NCBI RefSeq assembly: GCF_044324785.1
Contig: NZ_CP172127.1
Direction: 5' to 3' (one strand)
Length of the DNA: 64,000 bases
Source: Escherichia coli
Lineage (GTDB): Bacteria; Pseudomonadota; Gammaproteobacteria; Enterobacterales; Enterobacteriaceae
Shown in pieces: positions 42,968-58,088 of this stretch. The notes below the pieces were generated by a model. That model saw nothing but the letters and a program-made list of their open reading frames with translations. It ran no database searches and was not told the DNA's origin. How positions within the stretch are numbered: position 1 is the first letter of the stretch; the number at the start of each line of letters is the position of its first letter. A program made the translations under genes and the position numbers.

Positions 42968-43858
42968 ATGATCAAGAAGACAACGGAAATTGATGCCATC
43001 TTGTTAAATCTCAATAAGGCTATCGATGCCCACTACCAGTGGCTGGTAAGTATGTTTCACAGCGTAGTCGCGAGAGATGCCAGTAAGCCAGAAATAACGG
43101 ATAACCATTCTTATGGACTGTGCCAGTTTGGTCGGTGGATTGATCATCTGGGGCCACTCGATAACGATGAATTACCTTACGTTCGGCTAATGGATTCTGC
43201 CCATCAACATATGCATAACTGTGGTCGGGAATTAATGTTGGCTATTATTGAAAATCACTGGCAGGACGCGCATTTCGACGCCTTTCAGGAAGGGTTGCTT
43301 TCTTTTACTGCGGCATTAACCGATTACAAAATTTATTTGCTGACGATCCGTAGCAATATGGATGTTTTGACGGGATTGCCGGGTCGTCGGGTTCTTGATG
43401 AATCCTTTGATCATCAGTTACGCAACGCTGAGCCTCTGAATCTTTATTTAATGTTGTTGGATATTGACCGATTTAAATTGGTTAATGATACCTACGGGCA
43501 TTTAATCGGCGATGTAGTATTACGCACCCTGGCAACTTACTTAGCCAGTTGGACGCGCGATTACGAAACGGTTTATCGCTACGGTGGCGAAGAATTTATC
43601 ATTATTGTCAAAGCGGCTAATGATGAAGAAGCATGTCGTGCAGGTATCAGAATTTGCCAGTTAGTCGATAACCATGCCATCACACATTCTGAAGGGCATA
43701 TCAACATTACCGTGACTGCAGGTGTGAGTCGCGCATTTCCTGAAGAGCCTCTGGATGTGGTCATTGGAAGAGCGGACCGGGCAATGTATGAGGGTAAGCA
43801 AACCGGAAGAAATCGCTGTATGTTTATTGACGAACAAAATGTGATTAACCGAGTTTAA
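42968..43858 (+). CDS. dgcZ: Zinc-sensing diguanylate cyclase
   Basis: 296 aa; N-terminal chemoreceptor zinc-binding (CZB)-like His/Cys motifs, C-terminal GGDEF domain with GGEEF. Confidence 0.9.
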   Translation: MIKKTTEIDAILLNLNKAIDAHYQWLVSMFHSVVARDASKPEITDNHSYGLCQFGRWIDHLGPLDNDELPYVRLMDSAHQHMHNCGRELMLAIIENHWQDAHFDAFQEGLLSFTAALTDYKIYLLTIRSNMDVLTGLPGRRVLDESFDHQLRNAEPLNLYLMLLDIDRFKLVNDTYGHLIGDVVLRTLATYLASWTRDYETVYRYGGEEFIIIVKAANDEEACRAGIRICQLVDNHAITHSEGHINITVTAGVSRAFPEEPLDVVIGRADRAMYEGKQTGRNRCMFIDEQNVINRV

Positions 43859-52015: not shown

Positions 52016-52115
52016 AATATTCTCGATTCGTGAATAAGTGGCTTAATATTATTCATTTTAAAGCAAGAGTAAATCTGCGTATCTTCATACAATGACTCAT
52101 AAAGGAGATACCCCG

Positions 52116-53504
52116 ATGACCATTACTCCGGAAACTCATGCAATTTCGATAAATCCTGCCACCGGTGAACAACTTTCTGTGCTGCCGTGGGCTGGCGCTG
52201 ACGATATCGAAAACGCACTACAGCTGGCGGCAGCTGGCTTTCGCGACTGGCGCGAGACAAATATAGATTATCGTGCTGAAAAACTGCGTGATATCGGTAA
52301 GGCTCTGCGTGTCCGTAGCGAAGAAATGGCGCAAATGATCACCCGTGAAATGGGCAAACCAATCAACCAGGCGCGCGCTGAAGTGGCGAAATCGGCGAAT
52401 TTGTGTGACTGGTATGCAGAACATGGTCCGGCAATGCTGAAGGCGGAACCTACGCTGGTGGAAAATCAGCAGGCAGTTATTGAGTATCGACCGTTGGGGA
52501 CAATTCTGGCGATTATGCCGTGGAATTTTCCGTTATGGCAGGTGATGCGTGGCGCGGTTCCCATCATTCTTGCTGGTAACGGCTACTTACTTAAACATGC
52601 GCCGAATGTGATGGGCTGTGCACAGCTCATTGCCCAGGTGTTTAAAGATGCGGGTATCCCACAAGGCGTATATGGCTGGCTGAATGCCGACAACGACGGC
52701 GTCAGTCAGATGATTAAAGACTCGCGCATTGCTGCTGTCACGGTGACCGGAAGTGTTCGTGCGGGAGCGGCTATTGGCGCACAGGCTGGAGCGGCACTGA
52801 AAAAATGCGTACTGGAACTGGGCGGTTCGGATCCATTTATTGTGCTTAACGATGCCGATCTGGAACTGGCGGTTAAAGCGGCGGTAGCCGGACGTTTTCA
52901 GAATACCGGACAGGTTTGTGCAGCGGCAAAACGCTTTATCATCGAAGAGGGAATTGCTTCGGCATTTACCGAACGTTTTGTGGCAGCTGCGGCAGCCTTG
53001 AAAATGGGCGATCCCCGTGACGAAGAGAACACTCTCGGACCAATGGCTCGTTTTGATTTACGTGATGAGCTGCATCATCAGGTGGAGAAAACTCTGGCGC
53101 AGGGTGCGCGTTTGTTACTGGGCGGGGAAAAGATGGCAGGGGCAGGTAACTACTATTCGCCGACGGTTCTGGCGAATGTTACCCCAGAAATGACTGCGTT
53201 TCGGGAAGAAATGTTTGGCCCCGTTGCGGCAATCACCATTGCGAAAGATGCAGAACATGCACTGGAACTGGCTAATAATAGCGAGTTCGGCCTTTCAGCG
53301 ACCATTTTCACCACCGACGAAACACGGGCCAGACAGATGGCGGCACGTCTGGAATGCGGTGGGGTGTTTATCAATGGTTATTGTGCCAGCGACGCGCGAG
53401 TGGCCTTTGGTGGCGTGAAAAAGAGTGGCTTTGGTCGTGAGCTTTCCCATTTCGGCTTACACGAATTCTGTAATATCCAGACGGTGTGGAAAGACCGGAT
53501 CTGA
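52116..53504 (+). CDS. sad: NAD-dependent succinate semialdehyde dehydrogenase
   Basis: ORF 52092-53504; start at [20 protein letters not shown] (462 aa); ALDH catalytic motifs (ELGGSDP, Cys in QVCAAAKRF). Confidence 0.9.
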
Positions 53505-53567
53505 CGCGACATATTCAGCTCTGATATACTCGCAGGTCTTTTCAGACCTGCGGTCCAGGAGTAGAAA

Positions 53568-54494
53568 GTGGCAGTCGCCATGGATAATGCAATTTTAGAA
53601 AACATCTTGCGGCAAGTGCGGCCGCTCATTGGTCAGGGTAAAGTCGCGGATTATATTCCGGCGCTGGCTACGGTAGACGGTTCCCGGCTGGGCATTGCTA
53701 TCTGTACCGTTGACGGACAGCTTTTTCAGGCCGGAGACGCACAAGAACGTTTTTCCATTCAGTCTATTTCCAAAGTGCTGAGTCTCGTTGTCGCCATGCG
53801 TCATTACTCCGAAGAGGAAATCTGGCAACGCGTCGGCAAAGATCCGTCTGGATCACCGTTCAATTCTTTAGTGCAACTGGAAATGGAGCAGGGTATTCCG
53901 CGTAATCCGTTTATTAATGCCGGTGCGCTGGTGGTCTGCGATATGTTGCAAGGGCGATTAAGCGCTCCTCGGCAACGTATGCTGGAAGTCGTGCGCGGCT
54001 TAAGCGGTGTGTCTGATATTTCATACGATACGGTGGTAGCGCGTTCCGAATTTGAACATTCCGCGCGAAATGCGGCTATCGCCTGGCTGATGAAGTCGTT
54101 TGGCAATTTCCATCATGATGTGACAACCGTTCTGCAAAACTACTTTCATTACTGCGCTCTGAAAATGAGCTGTATAGAGCTGGCCCGGACGTTTGTCTTT
54201 CTGGCTAATCAGGGGAAAGCTATTCATATTGATGAACCTGTGGTGACGCCAATGCAGGCGCGGCAAATTAACGCGCTGATGGCGACCAGTGGTATGTACC
54301 AGAACGCGGGGGAGTTTGCCTGGCGGGTGGGACTACCAGCGAAATCTGGCGTTGGTGGCGGTATTGTGGCGATTGTTCCGCATGAAATGGCCATCGCAGT
54401 CTGGAGTCCGGAACTGGATGATGCAGGTAACTCGCTCGCGGGTATCGCCGTCCTTGAACAATTGACGAAACAGTTAGGGCGTTCGGTTTATTAA
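53568..54494 (+). CDS. glsB: Glutaminase 2
   Basis: 308 aa; serine-dependent beta-lactamase-like glutaminase fold (SISK motif). Confidence 0.9.
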
Positions 54495-54853
54495 TGCAGT
54501 CTCTCGATCCACTCTTCGCGCGTTTATCCCGTTCAAAATTTCGCTCTCGCTTTCGTTTGGGCATGAAAGAGCGTCAGTATTGTCTGGAGAAAGGCGCGCC
54601 AGTCATCGAACAACATGCGGCGGATTTTGTCGCTAAACGTCTTGCTCCGGCATTACCGGCTAATGACGGTAAGCAAACCCCCATGCGCGGGCATCCGGTG
54701 TTTATCGCTCAGCACGCCACCGCGACCTGCTGTCGCGGTTGTCTGGCTAAGTGGCATAACATTCCGCAGGGTGTTTCGTTAAGCGAGCAACAACAACGTT
54801 ATATCGTGGCGGTAATCTATCACTGGCTGGTTATACAGATGAATCAGCCATGA
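54494..54853 (+). CDS. yneG: YneG (DUF4186) protein
   Basis: 119-aa ORF directly after glsB. Confidence 0.85.
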   Translation: MQSLDPLFARLSRSKFRSRFRLGMKERQYCLEKGAPVIEQHAADFVAKRLAPALPANDGKQTPMRGHPVFIAQHATATCCRGCLAKWHNIPQGVSLSEQQQRYIVAVIYHWLVIQMNQP

Positions 54854-54991
54854 GAATTGCGGAAAACGATAAAATAGCATTCCCAGGGTATCTTTATTTG
54901 CCGCCGCTGTCAGCGAACATGCTATCCTTTATGAGAATTTACTTATTACGTTGAGATAATTGCCACCCGCAATTGTATGGACAGATAATTA

Positions 54992-56410
54992 ATGCATGTA
55001 CACCCCATTTCAACTTTCCGTGTGTTCCAGGAAGGTCATCTGCTACGTAATAGCATCGCTATTTTTGCGCTAACCACGCTGTTCTATTTTATTGGTGCAG
55101 AGTTACGGCTGGTTCACGAACTTTCTCTTTTCTGGCCGCTGAATGGCGTAATGGCGGGGGTGTTTGCGCGCTATGTCTGGCTTAATCGACTGCATTACTA
55201 TGCGATCAGTTATGTGGCGATGCTGGTTTATGATGCCATAACCACCGAATGGGGACTGGTTTCACTGGCTATCAATTTCTCCAATATGATGTTTATTGTT
55301 ACCGTCGCCTTACTGGTCGTGCGGGATAAGCGTCTGGGGAAAAATAAGTATGAGCCAGTAAGTGCCTTACGGCTATTTAATTACTGTCTGATTGCCGCAT
55401 TATTATGCGCTATTGTCGGGGCGATTGGTTCGGTCAGTATTGATAGTCTGGATTTCTGGCCTTTGCTTGCCGACTGGTTCAGTGAGCAATTCTCAACGGG
55501 CGTGTTGATCGTGCCTTGTATGCTGACATTGGCAATTCCTGGAGTGCTGCCGCGCTTTAAAGCAGAACAGATGATGCCCGCTATCGCGCTTATTGTGTCG
55601 GTTATTGCCTCGGTAGTCATTGGCGGAGCGGGGAGTCTGGCGTTCCCGCTGCCTGCATTAATCTGGTGTGCAGTGCGCTATACGCCGCAGGTAACATGTC
55701 TGTTGACCTTTGTTACCGGTGCGGTGGAAATCGTACTGGTGGCAAATTCGGTGATTGATATCTCGGTCGGTTCGCCGTTCTCCATTCCGGAAATGTTCTC
55801 CGCACGTCTCGGTATTGCTACGATGGCGATATGCCCAATTATGGTTTCTTTTAGCGTGGCAGCGATCAATTCGCTAATGAAGCAAGTTGCGCTGCGAGCC
55901 GACTTTGATTTTCTGACTCAGGTTTACTCACGGTCCGGTCTTTATGAGGCGCTGAAAAGTCCATCGCTGAAACAGACACAACATCTGACTGTCATGCTGC
56001 TTGATATCGACTATTTCAAAAGCATTAACGATAACTATGGACATGAATGTGGCGATAAAGTGTTAAGCGTGTTTGCCCAGCATATTCAGAAGATTGTCGG
56101 TGATAAGGGGCTGGTGGCGCGAATGGGCGGCGAAGAATTTGCTGTTGCAGTGCCATCAGTGAATCCTGTCGATGGTCTGCTAATGGCGGAAAAAATCCGT
56201 AAAGGCGTTGAACTGCAACCGTTCACCTGGCAACAAAAAACGCTTTATCTCACGGTAAGTATTGGCGTCGGTAGTGGTTGCGCATCGTACCGAACGCTGA
56301 CCGATGACTTTAATAAATTGATGGTCGAAGCTGATACGTGTCTGTATCGCTCGAAGAAAGATGGGCGCAACCGTACCAGCACTATGCGTTACGGTGAGGA
56401 AGTTGTCTGA
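54992..56410 (+). CDS. dgcF: Membrane-anchored diguanylate cyclase
   Basis: 472-aa ORF; multi-TM N-terminal sensor, C-terminal GGDEF domain with GGEEF; true start may be downstream. Confidence 0.8.
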   Translation: MHVHPISTFRVFQEGHLLRNSIAIFALTTLFYFIGAELRLVHELSLFWPLNGVMAGVFARYVWLNRLHYYAISYVAMLVYDAITTEWGLVSLAINFSNMMFIVTVALLVVRDKRLGKNKYEPVSALRLFNYCLIAALLCAIVGAIGSVSIDSLDFWPLLADWFSEQFSTGVLIVPCMLTLAIPGVLPRFKAEQMMPAIALIVSVIASVVIGGAGSLAFPLPALIWCAVRYTPQVTCLLTFVTGAVEIVLVANSVIDISVGSPFSIPEMFSARLGIATMAICPIMVSFSVAAINSLMKQVALRADFDFLTQVYSRSGLYEALKSPSLKQTQHLTVMLLDIDYFKSINDNYGHECGDKVLSVFAQHIQKIVGDKGLVARMGGEEFAVAVPSVNPVDGLLMAEKIRKGVELQPFTWQQKTLYLTVSIGVGSGCASYRTLTDDFNKLMVEADTCLYRSKKDGRNRTSTMRYGEEVV

Positions 56411-56636
56411 CATCTTTATTCATTCTGCGCGATTTAAATGCAATGTGTTCTACCACTTTATGATCGAAGAAAAGGCGTATTTCCTCGATTAAACCATGAT
56501 CCGCGCCACACTTTTCTCATAAAACTGCTCATTAATCATCAGGAGTTGATCAAAACAGGGGTTCGGCGTATTAAAGTTTGCTAACCTGTCGTACCAATTC
56601 AAACAGGTTGTATGACTAATCAGAAGGGAACCCATT

Positions 56637-58088
56637 GTGAAAACACTAAAACGTCGCGATTTTCCCGGTGCACAGTATCCAGAACGTATCATTCAGTTTG
56701 GTGAAGGTAACTTCCTGCGCGCCTTTGTTGACTGGCAAATTGATCTCCTGAATGAGCACACCGATCTGAATTCTGGCGTGGTCGTTGTTCGTCCGATTGA
56801 AACTTCATTCCCGCCGTCACTGAGCACGCAGGATGGTCTGTACACCACCATTATCCGTGGTCTGAACGAGAAGGGGGAAGCGGTCAGCGACGCGCGTCTG
56901 ATTCGCTCGGTTAATCGTGAAATCAGCGTCTACAGTGAATACGATGAATTCCTGAAACTGGCGCACAACCCGGAAATGCGCTTTGTTTTCTCTAACACCA
57001 CCGAAGCGGGTATCAGCTACCATGCGGGCGATAAATTCGATGACGCGCCAGCGGTAAGTTATCCGGCAAAACTGACACGTCTGCTTTTCGAGCGTTTTAG
57101 CCATTTCAACGGTGCGCTGGATAAAGGTTGGATCATCATCCCGTGTGAGTTGATCGACTACAATGGCGACGCGTTGCGTGAACTGGTGCTGCGCTATGCG
57201 CAAGAGTGGGCACTGCCAGAAGCATTTATTCAATGGCTGGATCAGGCTAACAGCTTCTGTTCTACGCTGGTGGACCGTATCGTTACCGGTTATCCGCGCG
57301 ATGAAGTGGCTAAACTGGAAGAAGAACTGGGTTATCACGATGGTTTCCTCGACACCGCTGAACACTTTTACCTGTTTGTGATTCAGGGGCCGAAATCCTT
57401 AGCGACTGAACTGCGTCTGGACAAATATCCGCTCAACGTGCTGATTGTTGACGATATTAAACCGTATAAAGAACGCAAAGTGGCAATACTCAACGGTGCG
57501 CACACCGCGCTGGTGCCGGTAGCGTTCCAGGCAGGGCTGGATACCGTAGGTGAAGCGATGAACGATGCTGAAATTTGCGCATTCGTTGAAAAAGCCATCT
57601 ACGAAGAAATTATTCCGGTACTGGATTTGCCACGCGATGAGCTGGAGTCTTTCGCCAGTGCAGTCACCGGACGTTTCCGTAACCCGTACATCAAGCATCA
57701 GCTGCTGTCTATCGCGCTCAACGGTATGACCAAGTTCCGCACCCGTATCCTGCCGCAGCTGCTGGCAGGGCAGAAGGCAAACGGCACACTTCCGGCGCGC
57801 CTTACTTTCGCATTAGCGGCATTGATTGCGTTTTATCGCGGTGAGCGTAACGGAGAAACATATCCGGTACAGGACGATGCACACTGGCTGGAACGTTATC
57901 AGCAACTCTGGAGCCAGCATCGTGACCGTGTTATCGGCACCCAGGAACTGGTAGCGATTGTTTTGGCAGAAAAAGACCACTGGGAGCAGGACCTGACGCA
58001 AGTGCCTGGACTGGTCGAGCAGGTTGCTAAGGACCTGGATGCGATTCTCGAAAAAGGAATGCGCGAAGCTGTACGCCCGTTGTGCTAA
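56637..58088 (+). CDS. uxaB: Altronate oxidoreductase (tagaturonate reductase)
   Basis: 483 aa [38 protein letters not shown]... Confidence 0.95.

What the first reader, a model, noticed from the sequence alone, without database searches (positions are those of the whole stretch)
54992..56410. Long form of the dgcF diguanylate cyclase; two GGDEF enzymes within 13 kb
The ORF encodes a multi-TM N-terminal domain plus a GGEEF-containing GGDEF domain. I recall the K-12 annotation of yneF as considerably shorter, so this strain may carry the intact sensor domain or the annotated start differs. Together with zinc-sensing dgcZ, the region carries two c-di-GMP synthases.
Basis: partly seen in the sequence, partly recalled or inferred. 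Interest (0 to 1): 0.25.

Follow-up and report, generated by a model that had tools for sequence, protein, structure and literature searches.

The report
Full-length dgcF; K-12 copy is truncated
This window carries the intact, ancestral 472-residue membrane-bound diguanylate cyclase DgcF, whereas E. coli K-12 and about a fifth of sequenced E. coli strains have lost its promoter-proximal region and first 145 codons through one 498-bp deletion; this was published in 2014, so the finding is correct but ordinary.

Summary
Window 54992..56410 (+) is an intact 472-codon ORF with a polytopic N-terminal membrane domain of about 300 residues and a GGDEF domain (Pfam 140.7 bits) that has an intact GGEEF motif and no RxxD I-site.

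K-12 lacks 498 bp here (window about 54929..55426): 63 nt upstream of the ATG plus codons 1-145.

Outgroups (E. fergusonii, Citrobacter, Enterobacter, Lelliottia) all have the long form, so it is ancestral. Of 5426 complete E. coli genomes, 4196 have the deleted segment and 1216 carry the exact K-12 junction.

This is already published (Richter et al. 2014; Sarenko et al. 2017), and DgcF activity has been shown in Shigella.

dgcZ is confirmed at 42968..43858. It is only 31% identical to DgcF in the GGDEF domain and is present in nearly all E. coli, so the pairing is a conserved coincidence.

- The N-terminal domain gets no Pfam hit itself but appears to be a divergent MASE1 relative.

Interest is low.

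The parts
54992..56410 (+). dgcF (yneF) coding sequence, full-length 472-codon allele including the stop codon
   Evidence: ORF list. It is 97-99.6% identical to genes annotated 'sensor domain-containing diguanylate cyclase' or dgcF in 5414 of 5426 E. coli genomes. Synteny sad-glsB-yneG-dgcF-uxaB-yneE matches the K-12 and N3 records. dN/dS is about 0.09 against a divergent allele.
54992..55891 (+). N-terminal polytopic membrane (sensor) domain, residues 1-300; divergent MASE1-like, about 10 helices
   Evidence: Hydropathy. AF2 helices at 17-37, 49-60, 67-84, 89-111, 122-147, 155-179, 191-210, 213-229, 232-251 and 265-299. No Pfam hit for the domain itself. 39 of 60 family members hit MASE1. 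The family HMM matches the DgcE MASE1 domain at E 2.7e-10 while 15 control membrane proteins score below 2 bits. hhalign gives E 1e-4.
55898..56374 (+). GGDEF catalytic domain, residues 303-461
   Evidence: Pfam PF00990 at 140.7 bits. TIGR00254 at 130.6 bits. Closest solved structures are the WspR and PleD GGDEF domains, E 1e-22 to 1e-20.
56126..56140 (+). GGEEF active-site (A-site) motif, residues 379-383. The I-site position five residues upstream reads GDKG instead of RxxD.
   Evidence: Motif scan; sequence. Agrees with Richter et al. 2014, 'intact A-site but no I-site'.
54929..55426 (+). 498-bp segment that is deleted in K-12-type alleles (breakpoint ambiguous by 2 nt: 54927-55424 is equally possible). 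It contains 63 nt of upstream DNA, the ATG and codons 1-145 (membrane helices 1-5).
   Evidence: Pairwise alignment with K-12. The segment is present in 4196 of 5426 genomes. The K-12 junction is contiguous in 1216 of 5426 genomes and identical in sheep, human and sediment isolates.
54931..54989 (+). Two overlapping sigma-70-like promoter matches upstream of the ATG (ATGAGA-18-GATAAT with an extended -10 TG; TTGCCA-18-GATAAT). Both lie inside the K-12 deletion. Weak evidence only.
   Evidence: Consensus scan: 4 sites found against 3.6 expected by chance. Richter et al. 2014 report weak, mainly RpoS-dependent expression of the full-length gene and no expression in K-12.
52092..54853 (+). Co-oriented upstream genes sad (52092..53504), glsB (53568..54494) and yneG (54494..54853); a possible shared transcription unit with dgcF
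   Evidence: ORFs; annotation of homologous records. No terminator-like site was found in the scanned stretch 54700..56700, which includes the yneG-dgcF gap. A preprint treats yneI-yneH-yneG-yneF as one PtrR-regulated operon.
42968..43858 (+). dgcZ (ydeH), the second GGDEF gene named in the finding; 296 aa
   Evidence: ORF. NCBIfam NF007380 equivalog at 520 bits against a cutoff of 256. RefSeq annotates the gene as dgcZ at 99.6% identity. It is 31% identical to DgcF over the GGDEF domain only.

Best explanation
The ORF is the intact, ancestral allele of dgcF (yneF), an inner-membrane diguanylate cyclase. Its N-terminal ~300 residues form a roughly ten-helix membrane domain distantly related to MASE1 sensor domains. 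The last long helix (residues 265-304) runs straight into a cytoplasmic GGDEF domain with an intact GGEEF active site and no RxxD inhibitory site. Shown: the gene structure, the domain content, and the relation to K-12. In K-12 a single 498-bp deletion removed the proximal upstream region, the start codon and codons 1-145, leaving a non-expressed remnant that was long mis-annotated as a 315-residue protein. Taken from the literature: the full-length protein makes c-di-GMP when expressed; it is weakly expressed and mainly RpoS-dependent; and its loss changes biofilm, adherence, acid-resistance and invasion phenotypes in UPEC and Shigella. Inferred: the membrane domain receives an unknown signal (a membrane-embedded or periplasm-facing ligand, or a partner protein). 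It would pass this through the connecting helix to control how two GGDEF domains pair, which is what GTP condensation into c-di-GMP requires. Because there is no I-site, output would not be limited by product feedback. The nearby dgcZ is an unrelated, soluble, zinc-regulated paralogue, and the proximity of the two genes is a conserved feature of the E. coli chromosome with no evident functional coupling.
For: ORF and domains. K-12 deletion and pseudogene flag. Ancestral state: orthologues of 472-483 aa with the same N-terminus in E. fergusonii (82% identity over the full length), Citrobacter (79%), Enterobacter and Lelliottia (about 69-72%). Population frequency: 4196 of 5426 genomes hold the segment and 1216 of 5426 hold the K-12 junction. 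Purifying selection: 29 synonymous against 8 non-synonymous codon changes versus strain WL297, dN/dS about 0.09, spread over both domains. Literature: the 5' deletion in K-12, the start-codon misannotation, the ~300-residue hydrophobic domain, no I-site, and weak RpoS-dependent expression (PMC4287979). No DgcF protein is detectable in K-12 (PMC5635695). Shigella DgcF raises c-di-GMP by LC-MS/MS and a GG->AA mutant abolishes this (PMC11327459). CFT073 yneF-deletion phenotypes are complemented by WspR (PMC3484386). The K-12 remnant is catalytically competent when expressed from pBAD (PMC11757272). Structure: AF2 pLDDT 90.9 and pTM 0.83, with a continuous helix 265-304 joining the two domains. 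MASE1 relation.
Against: DgcF itself gives no Pfam MASE1 hit even at E<=10, and a profile built from close orthologues alone does not detect DgcE, UhpB or PdeF. The MASE1 link is therefore transitive, and UhpB and PdeF are not detected even by the broad profile. The signal sensed is unknown and nothing here tests signal transduction. The start codon has no obvious Shine-Dalgarno sequence, and the promoter-like matches are no more frequent than chance. Enzyme activity of this particular allele was not tested; its substitutions relative to other E. coli alleles include V11 (L in others), Q363 (R in others) and C430 (R in others).
Confidence: 0.93

Rival explanations
1. The difference from K-12 is only an annotation difference: the DNA is the same and K-12's start codon was simply called further downstream.
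For: The historical 315-aa K-12 protein does start at an internal TTG of the same reading frame.
Against: The alignment shows a clean 498-bp gap in K-12, with 98-99% identity on both sides. A megablast of the gene matches K-12-type genomes only from nt 434 onward. RefSeq marks the K-12 gene 'incomplete; missing N-terminus'.
Confidence: 0.01
2. The short K-12 form is ancestral, and the long form arose in this lineage by insertion or fusion of a membrane domain.
For: None found.
Against: The full-length architecture, with a homologous N-terminus, is found in E. fergusonii, Citrobacter, Enterobacter and Lelliottia. It also appears in hundreds of more distant cluster representatives of 460-490 aa. 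77% of E. coli genomes have the long form.
Confidence: 0.01
3. The N-terminal domain is not a signal receiver. It is a membrane anchor or localisation module, or a substrate-binding or transport-like module of the ECF S-component type, and the cyclase is constitutively active and controlled only by expression level.
Against: Ten positions in the membrane domain are invariant across 30 sequences that share only 24-36% identity with DgcF (W48, P49, N51, N98, W162, P175, W225, P282 and others). That is more conservation than an anchor needs. Related MASE1 domains act as signal-input modules, for example in DgcE (Pfiffer et al. 2019, cited). Overexpression assays cannot reveal regulation.
Confidence: 0.2
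4. Although intact, dgcF in this strain is effectively cryptic (too weakly expressed to matter) and on its way to loss, as in K-12.
For: The full-length gene has very weak lacZ-fusion activity. It has been lost independently or repeatedly: the 498-bp deletion in 22% of genomes, a dgcF-hipA fusion allele, and a partial gene in strain LI60C3 (H40).
Against: dN/dS of about 0.09 within E. coli and conservation across genera indicate selection on the protein. Deletion phenotypes are seen in CFT073 and Shigella.
Confidence: 0.07

Closest known systems
DgcF (YneF) of pathogenic and most commensal E. coli and of Shigella flexneri (full-size form described by Richter et al. 2014, EMBO Mol Med, PMC4287979)
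   Same: Same gene at the same chromosomal position (sad-glsB-yneG-dgcF-uxaB). It has 472 aa, is 97-99.6% identical at the DNA level, and has the same GGEEF motif and no I-site.
   Different: Only allelic substitutions. Against the commonest E. coli protein cluster (P0006) the differences are V11 (L there), D81 (Y there), Q363 (R there) and C430 (R there). No record in the complete-genome collection is 100% identical; the best match is 99.6%.
K-12 dgcF/yneF remnant (b1522; the formerly annotated 315-aa protein)
   Same: The 3' 984 nt are 98.6% identical, with 4 amino-acid differences; the GGDEF domain and helices 6-10 are retained.
   Different: K-12 lacks 498 bp: the upstream 63 nt, the ATG and codons 1-145. 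It is not expressed natively and RefSeq treats it as a pseudogene.
MASE1 domain (Pfam PF05231), as in E. coli DgcE, PdeF and UhpB
   Same: An N-terminal integral-membrane domain of about 300 residues and about ten helices, placed directly before a signalling output domain. A profile of the DgcF family aligns co-linearly with DgcE residues 12-249 (E 2.7e-10; hhalign E 1e-4). 39 of 60 family members hit PF05231.
   Different: DgcF and its relatives down to about 38% identity score nothing against PF05231. The more distant family members scanned one by one score 12-27 bits, below the 29.8-bit cutoff. UhpB and PdeF are not detected by the DgcF-family profile.
DgcZ (YdeH), the neighbouring zinc-regulated diguanylate cyclase
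   Same: GGDEF domain with a GGEEF motif, and the same enzymatic reaction.
   Different: DgcZ is soluble and has 296 aa. Established knowledge, not tested here: it has an N-terminal zinc-binding CZB domain and retains an I-site. It is only 31% identical to DgcF in the catalytic domain.
S components of ECF (energy-coupling factor) vitamin transporters (RibU, BtuM, FolT, ThiT, BioY)
   Different: Sequence identity is 6-14%. Only about half of the domain is covered. Foldseek finds nothing. No ECF T or A components are encoded nearby. The query is a predicted model, not a solved structure.

Membership tests
GGDEF-domain diguanylate cyclase (Pfam PF00990 / TIGR00254) | Domain model matched above the curated threshold | tested here: met
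   PF00990 at 140.7 bits against a cutoff of 23.8, full-length match 1-161 of 161. TIGR00254 at 130.6 bits against 37.4.
GGDEF-domain diguanylate cyclase (Pfam PF00990 / TIGR00254) | Intact GG(D/E)EF active-site motif, plus conserved metal- and GTP-binding residues | tested here: met
   GGEEF at residues 379-383. D338, K343, N346, D347, H351, D355 and R377 are invariant among orthologues and at least 90% conserved among the 60 family sequences, where D340 is invariant. The pattern KNDHDRGGEEF is listed for YneF in PMC3484386.
GGDEF-domain diguanylate cyclase (Pfam PF00990 / TIGR00254) | Synthesis of c-di-GMP from GTP | not testable with these tools
   Literature only. Shigella DgcF raises c-di-GMP by LC-MS/MS and a GG->AA mutant does not. 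The K-12 remnant is active and its E224A mutant is not.
GGDEF-domain diguanylate cyclase (Pfam PF00990 / TIGR00254) | RxxD allosteric I-site five residues before GG(D/E)EF (typical of many cyclases, not required for membership) | tested here: not met
   The sequence reads GDKG-LVARM-GGEEF. Richter et al. 2014 say the same.
DgcF/YneF orthologous group of Escherichia/Shigella | Near-identity to annotated dgcF and conserved synteny (sad-glsB-yneG upstream, uxaB-yneE downstream) | tested here: met
   Gene order in the window.
MASE1 integral-membrane sensor domain (Pfam PF05231) | Match to the family model above the gathering score (29.8 bits) | tested here: not met
   No MASE1 hit for residues 1-300 at E<=10. 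Positive controls hit at 128.5 bits (DgcE), 62.4 bits (UhpB) and 243 bits (PdeF).
MASE1 integral-membrane sensor domain (Pfam PF05231) | Homology demonstrable through intermediate sequences or profile comparison | tested here: inconclusive
   39 of 60 family members hit MASE1 at E<=0.01, best 3.2e-11, and the hits span nearly the whole model. The family HMM matches DgcE at E 2.7e-10 and 29.9 bits, while 15 control membrane proteins score below 2 bits. hhalign gives probability 57-86% and E 1e-4 to 5e-6. UhpB and PdeF are not detected, and the narrow ortholog profile detects nothing.
MASE1 integral-membrane sensor domain (Pfam PF05231) | Polytopic domain of about 300 residues at the N-terminus, directly coupled to a cytoplasmic signalling output domain | tested here: met
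   About ten helices over residues 17-299, followed by GGDEF. Two family members instead carry HisKA, HATPase_c and Response_reg output domains.
ECF-transporter S component | Six-helix S-component fold | tested here: inconclusive
   [not shown]
ECF-transporter S component | Association with ECF T and ATPase components, and sequence-family membership (BioY, ECF_trnsprt, Thia_YuaJ and similar) | tested here: not met
   No such Pfam hit. The neighbouring genes are sad, glsB, yneG and uxaB.

The most novel reading that the evidence does not exclude
The DgcF membrane domain may be a highly divergent MASE1 variant whose core keeps the small-molecule-binding six-helix fold of ECF S components. DgcF would then bind a membrane-accessible metabolite directly and convert its presence into c-di-GMP. 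The ligand might be linked to the co-transcribed sad-glsB-yneG glutamine/GABA/putrescine genes. This would give the first ligand hypothesis for the MASE1 superfamily and would explain the acid-resistance phenotype reported in Shigella.
Probability: 0.1. Interest if true: 0.5.

Novelty: already known. Interest (0 to 1): 0.1.

Why it matters
It matters little beyond correct annotation. Anyone using K-12 as the reference for E. coli c-di-GMP signalling should know that K-12 is the deviant here. The full-length DgcF is the ancestral state and the majority state (77% of complete genomes), and the K-12-type deletion is a natural allele shared by 22% of complete genomes, not a laboratory artefact. 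The one forward-looking point is that the signal sensed by DgcF's membrane domain is still unknown. Placing the domain as a divergent MASE1 relative with an ECF-S-like core suggests looking for a small-molecule ligand.

Tried and rejected
- **Pfam scan for a MASE hit.** I scanned the N-terminal 300 residues at E<=10, hoping for a direct hit. The only return was a chance SAYSvFN match at E 0.13.
- **Narrow ortholog profile.** A profile of enterobacterial orthologues only (HMMER and hhalign) against DgcE, UhpB and PdeF gave nothing above the membrane-protein controls. Only the broad 60-sequence family profile links to DgcE.
- **Internal duplication of the membrane domain.** I tested residues 1-152 against 153-300, prompted by the recurring FWP/FPxP motifs and a 9-nt direct repeat at 55129 and 55453. 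hhalign gave E 0.56, so this is not supported.
- **Solved structures.** A PDB sequence search with the family profile gave no relevant hit. Foldseek against PDB gave nothing with E<0.9.
- **AlphaFold-database comparison.** The afdb50 library was not available, so I could not compare the model with predicted MASE1 structures.
- **Mechanism of the K-12 deletion.** There are no flanking direct or inverted repeats at the breakpoints and at most 2 nt of ambiguity. IS-mediated or repeat-mediated deletion is therefore not indicated.
- **Non-coding features.** Rfam finds nothing in 54400..56800 at E<=1. The promoter scan is at chance level and there are no terminator-like sites.
- **Recent duplication of dgcF and dgcZ.** Rejected: they are 31% identical in the GGDEF domain only.
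- **Papers not held.** Povolotsky & Hengge 2016 and Hengge et al. 2016, which probably give the strain distribution and the official domain assignment, could not be read.

Full report
**1. Observation**

Window 54992..56410 (+) is an uninterrupted ATG-initiated ORF of 472 codons.
- Pfam places a complete GGDEF domain at residues 303-461 (E 4.5e-41, 140.7 bits against a cutoff of 23.8). NCBIfam TIGR00254 agrees.
- The active-site motif GGEEF is at residues 379-383, nt 56126-56140.
- The position where many cyclases carry the inhibitory RxxD site reads GDKG.
- Residues 1-300 are very hydrophobic and match no Pfam family themselves.

The finding's description of the sequence is therefore accurate.

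**2. Comparison with K-12**

A megablast of the gene against 5426 complete E. coli genomes finds it in 5414. About a quarter of these, including K-12, match only from nucleotide 434 onward.

The alignment with a K-12 chromosome shows one clean 498-bp gap.
- The gap corresponds to window 54929..55426; the breakpoint is ambiguous by 2 nt.
- The DNA is 98-99% identical on both sides.
- The missing piece holds the last 63 nt of the yneG-dgcF spacer, the ATG and codons 1-145.

What is left in K-12 is an ORF of 315 codons that begins at an internal TTG. RefSeq now annotates the K-12 gene as a pseudogene, 'incomplete; missing N-terminus'. No repeats flank the breakpoints.

**3. Which form is ancestral, and how common is each**

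Homologues with the same length (472-483 aa), the same start and the same two-domain layout occur in four other genera. Identities below are over the full-length protein.
- E. fergusonii: 82%
- Citrobacter: 79%
- Enterobacter and Lelliottia: about 69-72%

The long form is therefore ancestral and the K-12 form is derived.

Among complete E. coli genomes:
- The 498-bp segment is present in 4196 of 5426.
- An 80-nt probe across the K-12 junction matches contiguously in 1216 of 5426.
- The junction-bearing genomes include strain HS and isolates from sheep, dogs, chickens, wastewater and people. Three of them were checked to have the identical junction.

The two classes together account for essentially every genome that has dgcF. 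The deletion is therefore a natural allele at about 22% of complete genomes, not something peculiar to the laboratory strain.

Within E. coli the long allele evolves under purifying selection. Against strain WL297 there are 29 synonymous and 8 non-synonymous codon differences, dN/dS about 0.09, spread over both domains.

**4. What is already published**

- Richter et al. [quoted passage not shown]
  - They state that this caused start-codon misannotation and explains the lack of expression in W3110.
  - They describe full-size YneF as having a ~300-residue hydrophobic N-terminal domain and a GGDEF domain with an intact A-site and no I-site.
  - They found its expression weak and mainly RpoS-dependent.
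- Sarenko et al. 2017 (PMC5635695) used the 55989 allele for this reason and could not detect DgcF protein in K-12.
- Enzymatic activity and phenotypes are documented in three papers.
  - In CFT073, yneF-deletion defects in biofilm and adherence are complemented by WspR (PMC3484386).
  - Shigella flexneri DgcF raises c-di-GMP by LC-MS/MS, and this is abolished by a GG->AA mutation. It affects acid resistance, invasion and plaque formation (PMC11327459).
  - Even the K-12 315-aa remnant makes c-di-GMP when driven from pBAD (PMC11757272).

The central point of the finding is thus correct and already known.

**5. The second cyclase**

The ORF at 42968..43858 (+) is dgcZ. It is 296 aa and matches NCBIfam equivalog NF007380 at 520 bits against a cutoff of 256. 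It is annotated dgcZ in RefSeq and is present in 5414 of 5426 genomes.

Its similarity to DgcF is confined to the catalytic domain, at 31% identity. The two genes are old paralogues that sit about 12 kb apart in essentially all E. coli, K-12 included. The region between them holds ORFs that I assigned from my recollection of K-12 gene order as ydeE, eamA, marRAB, marC, sotB, yneK and yneJ; only the ORF coordinates come. I see no reason to read the proximity as functional.

**6. The N-terminal domain**

*Family and Pfam hits*
- An exhaustive phmmer search with residues 1-300 finds 404 cluster representatives at E<=0.001. Most are 460-490 aa, that is, the same membrane-domain-plus-GGDEF layout.
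- Scanning 60 of them against Pfam, 58 have GGDEF and 39 hit MASE1 (PF05231) at E<=0.01, best 3.2e-11.
- Of the ten members scanned one by one, those closest to DgcF (down to 38% identity) hit nothing. Several at 30-34% identity give sub-threshold hits of 12-27 bits that span almost the whole MASE1 model.

*Profile comparisons*
- An HMM of the 60 N-terminal domains matches the MASE1 domain of E. coli DgcE co-linearly (profile positions 10-255 to DgcE residues 12-249) at E 2.7e-10. Fifteen unrelated polytopic membrane proteins all score below 2 bits.
- hhalign gives E 5e-6 and 1e-4.
- UhpB and PdeF, which are clear MASE1 proteins, are not detected. A profile of close orthologues alone detects nothing.

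I conclude that the domain is a divergent branch related to MASE1, not a member by Pfam's criterion.

*Structure model and topology*
- AlphaFold2 gives confident models: pLDDT 90.9 for the full length and 89.3 for the N-terminal domain alone.
- Helices lie at 17-37, 49-60, 67-84, 89-111, 122-147, 155-179, 191-210, 213-229, 232-251 and 265-304. The last runs uninterrupted into the GGDEF domain.
- By the positive-inside rule (basic residues at 111-119 and 188-190 and R229; acidic residues at 151-161), I infer ten membrane passes with both termini in the cytoplasm.
- The K-12 deletion removes the first five helices.

**7. An unplanned observation**

- The hits include RibU, BtuM, FolT, ThiT, BioY, PanT, CbiM and YkoE.
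- Below these, scores drop to designed helical repeats.

Foldseek sees nothing, and no paper in the searchable library links MASE1 to ECF transporters. From memory, and not verifiable here, Pfam places MASE1 in the same clan as several S-component families; if so, the resemblance would be expected. A sequence test for an internal duplication of the domain was negative. I record this as a lead for a ligand hypothesis, not as a result.

**8. Mechanism**

*Shown or documented*
- A membrane-integral protein with a competent GGDEF domain makes c-di-GMP.
- Its native expression needs the region that K-12 has lost.

*Inferred*
- The membrane domain receives a signal and, through the helix at 265-304, sets the relative position of two GGDEF domains in a dimer. 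This is how membrane-bound cyclases are generally thought to be controlled.
- The absence of an I-site means there is no product inhibition.
- Transcription may come both from a weak promoter within 54931-54989 and by read-through from sad-glsB-yneG. The promoter matches are at chance level. No terminator-like site was found in the scanned stretch 54700..56700, which includes the yneG-dgcF gap, and a preprint treats the four genes as one PtrR-controlled operon.

The main rival is that the domain is merely an anchor and the enzyme is governed only by its abundance. It cannot be excluded, because all activity data come from overexpression. However, ten positions in the domain are invariant across 30 sequences that share only 24-36% identity with DgcF, which argues for more than anchoring.

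**9. Verdict**

- Novelty: already known.
- Interest is low (0.1).
- The residual value lies in three things: the population figures (77% intact, 22% K-12-type deletion), the assignment of the sensor domain as a divergent MASE1 relative, and the ECF-S-like fold as a lead.

Noticed in passing
[not shown]
   Followed up: partly
L009 5001-6545 (GCA_001638065.1) and L010 944-2488: A rare E. coli allele (P0008, 514 aa) fuses DgcF residues 1-303, the whole membrane domain, in frame to a HipA C-terminal kinase domain. The gene is followed directly by fimbrial genes instead of uxaB. This implies a large deletion that ends exactly at the DgcF domain boundary.
   Followed up: partly
L001 2489-2518; L006, L007 and L008 589-618: The K-12 deletion junction is identical in wild isolates from a sheep (China), human stool (Mozambique) and sediment (China), and is contiguous in 1216 of 5426 complete genomes, including strain HS. 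Published wording that the deletion is 'specifically in E. coli K-12' understates its spread.
   Followed up: yes
E. coli genome hit H40 (NZ_CP136900.1, strain LI60C3): In this strain only nt 1-793 of dgcF match, and the annotation under the match runs into tam. This looks like another independent deletion that removes the GGDEF half together with uxaB and yneE.
   Followed up: no
window 54854-54991 and 52092-54853: dgcF lies 138 nt downstream of the co-oriented sad-glsB-yneG genes. No terminator-like site was found in the scanned stretch 54700..56700, which includes the yneG-dgcF gap. A preprint lists yneF as the last gene of the PtrR (YneJ)-regulated yneI operon. This may connect with the acid-resistance phenotype of Shigella dgcF.
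   Followed up: partly
window 55129-55148 and 55453-55472: A 20-nt direct repeat (9 nt exact, TTTCTGGCC) encodes the FWP motif twice (residues 47-49 and 155-157), each time just before a membrane helix. A profile test for an internal duplication of the domain was not significant, E 0.56.
   Followed up: yes
window 56279-56281 (codon 430) and 56078-56080 (codon 363): This allele has Cys430 and Gln363 where K-12 and two other E. coli DgcF proteins compared (P0003, P0006) have Arg. Position 430 is variable across genera, so no effect is expected. No complete genome in the collection carries an identical allele; the best match is 99.6%, strain N3.
   Followed up: partly
E. coli genome searches: Five of the matching places for both dgcF and dgcZ lie on records classed as plasmids. 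This suggests that a few assemblies carry this chromosomal region on a large plasmid-labelled replicon, or are mis-assigned.
   Followed up: no
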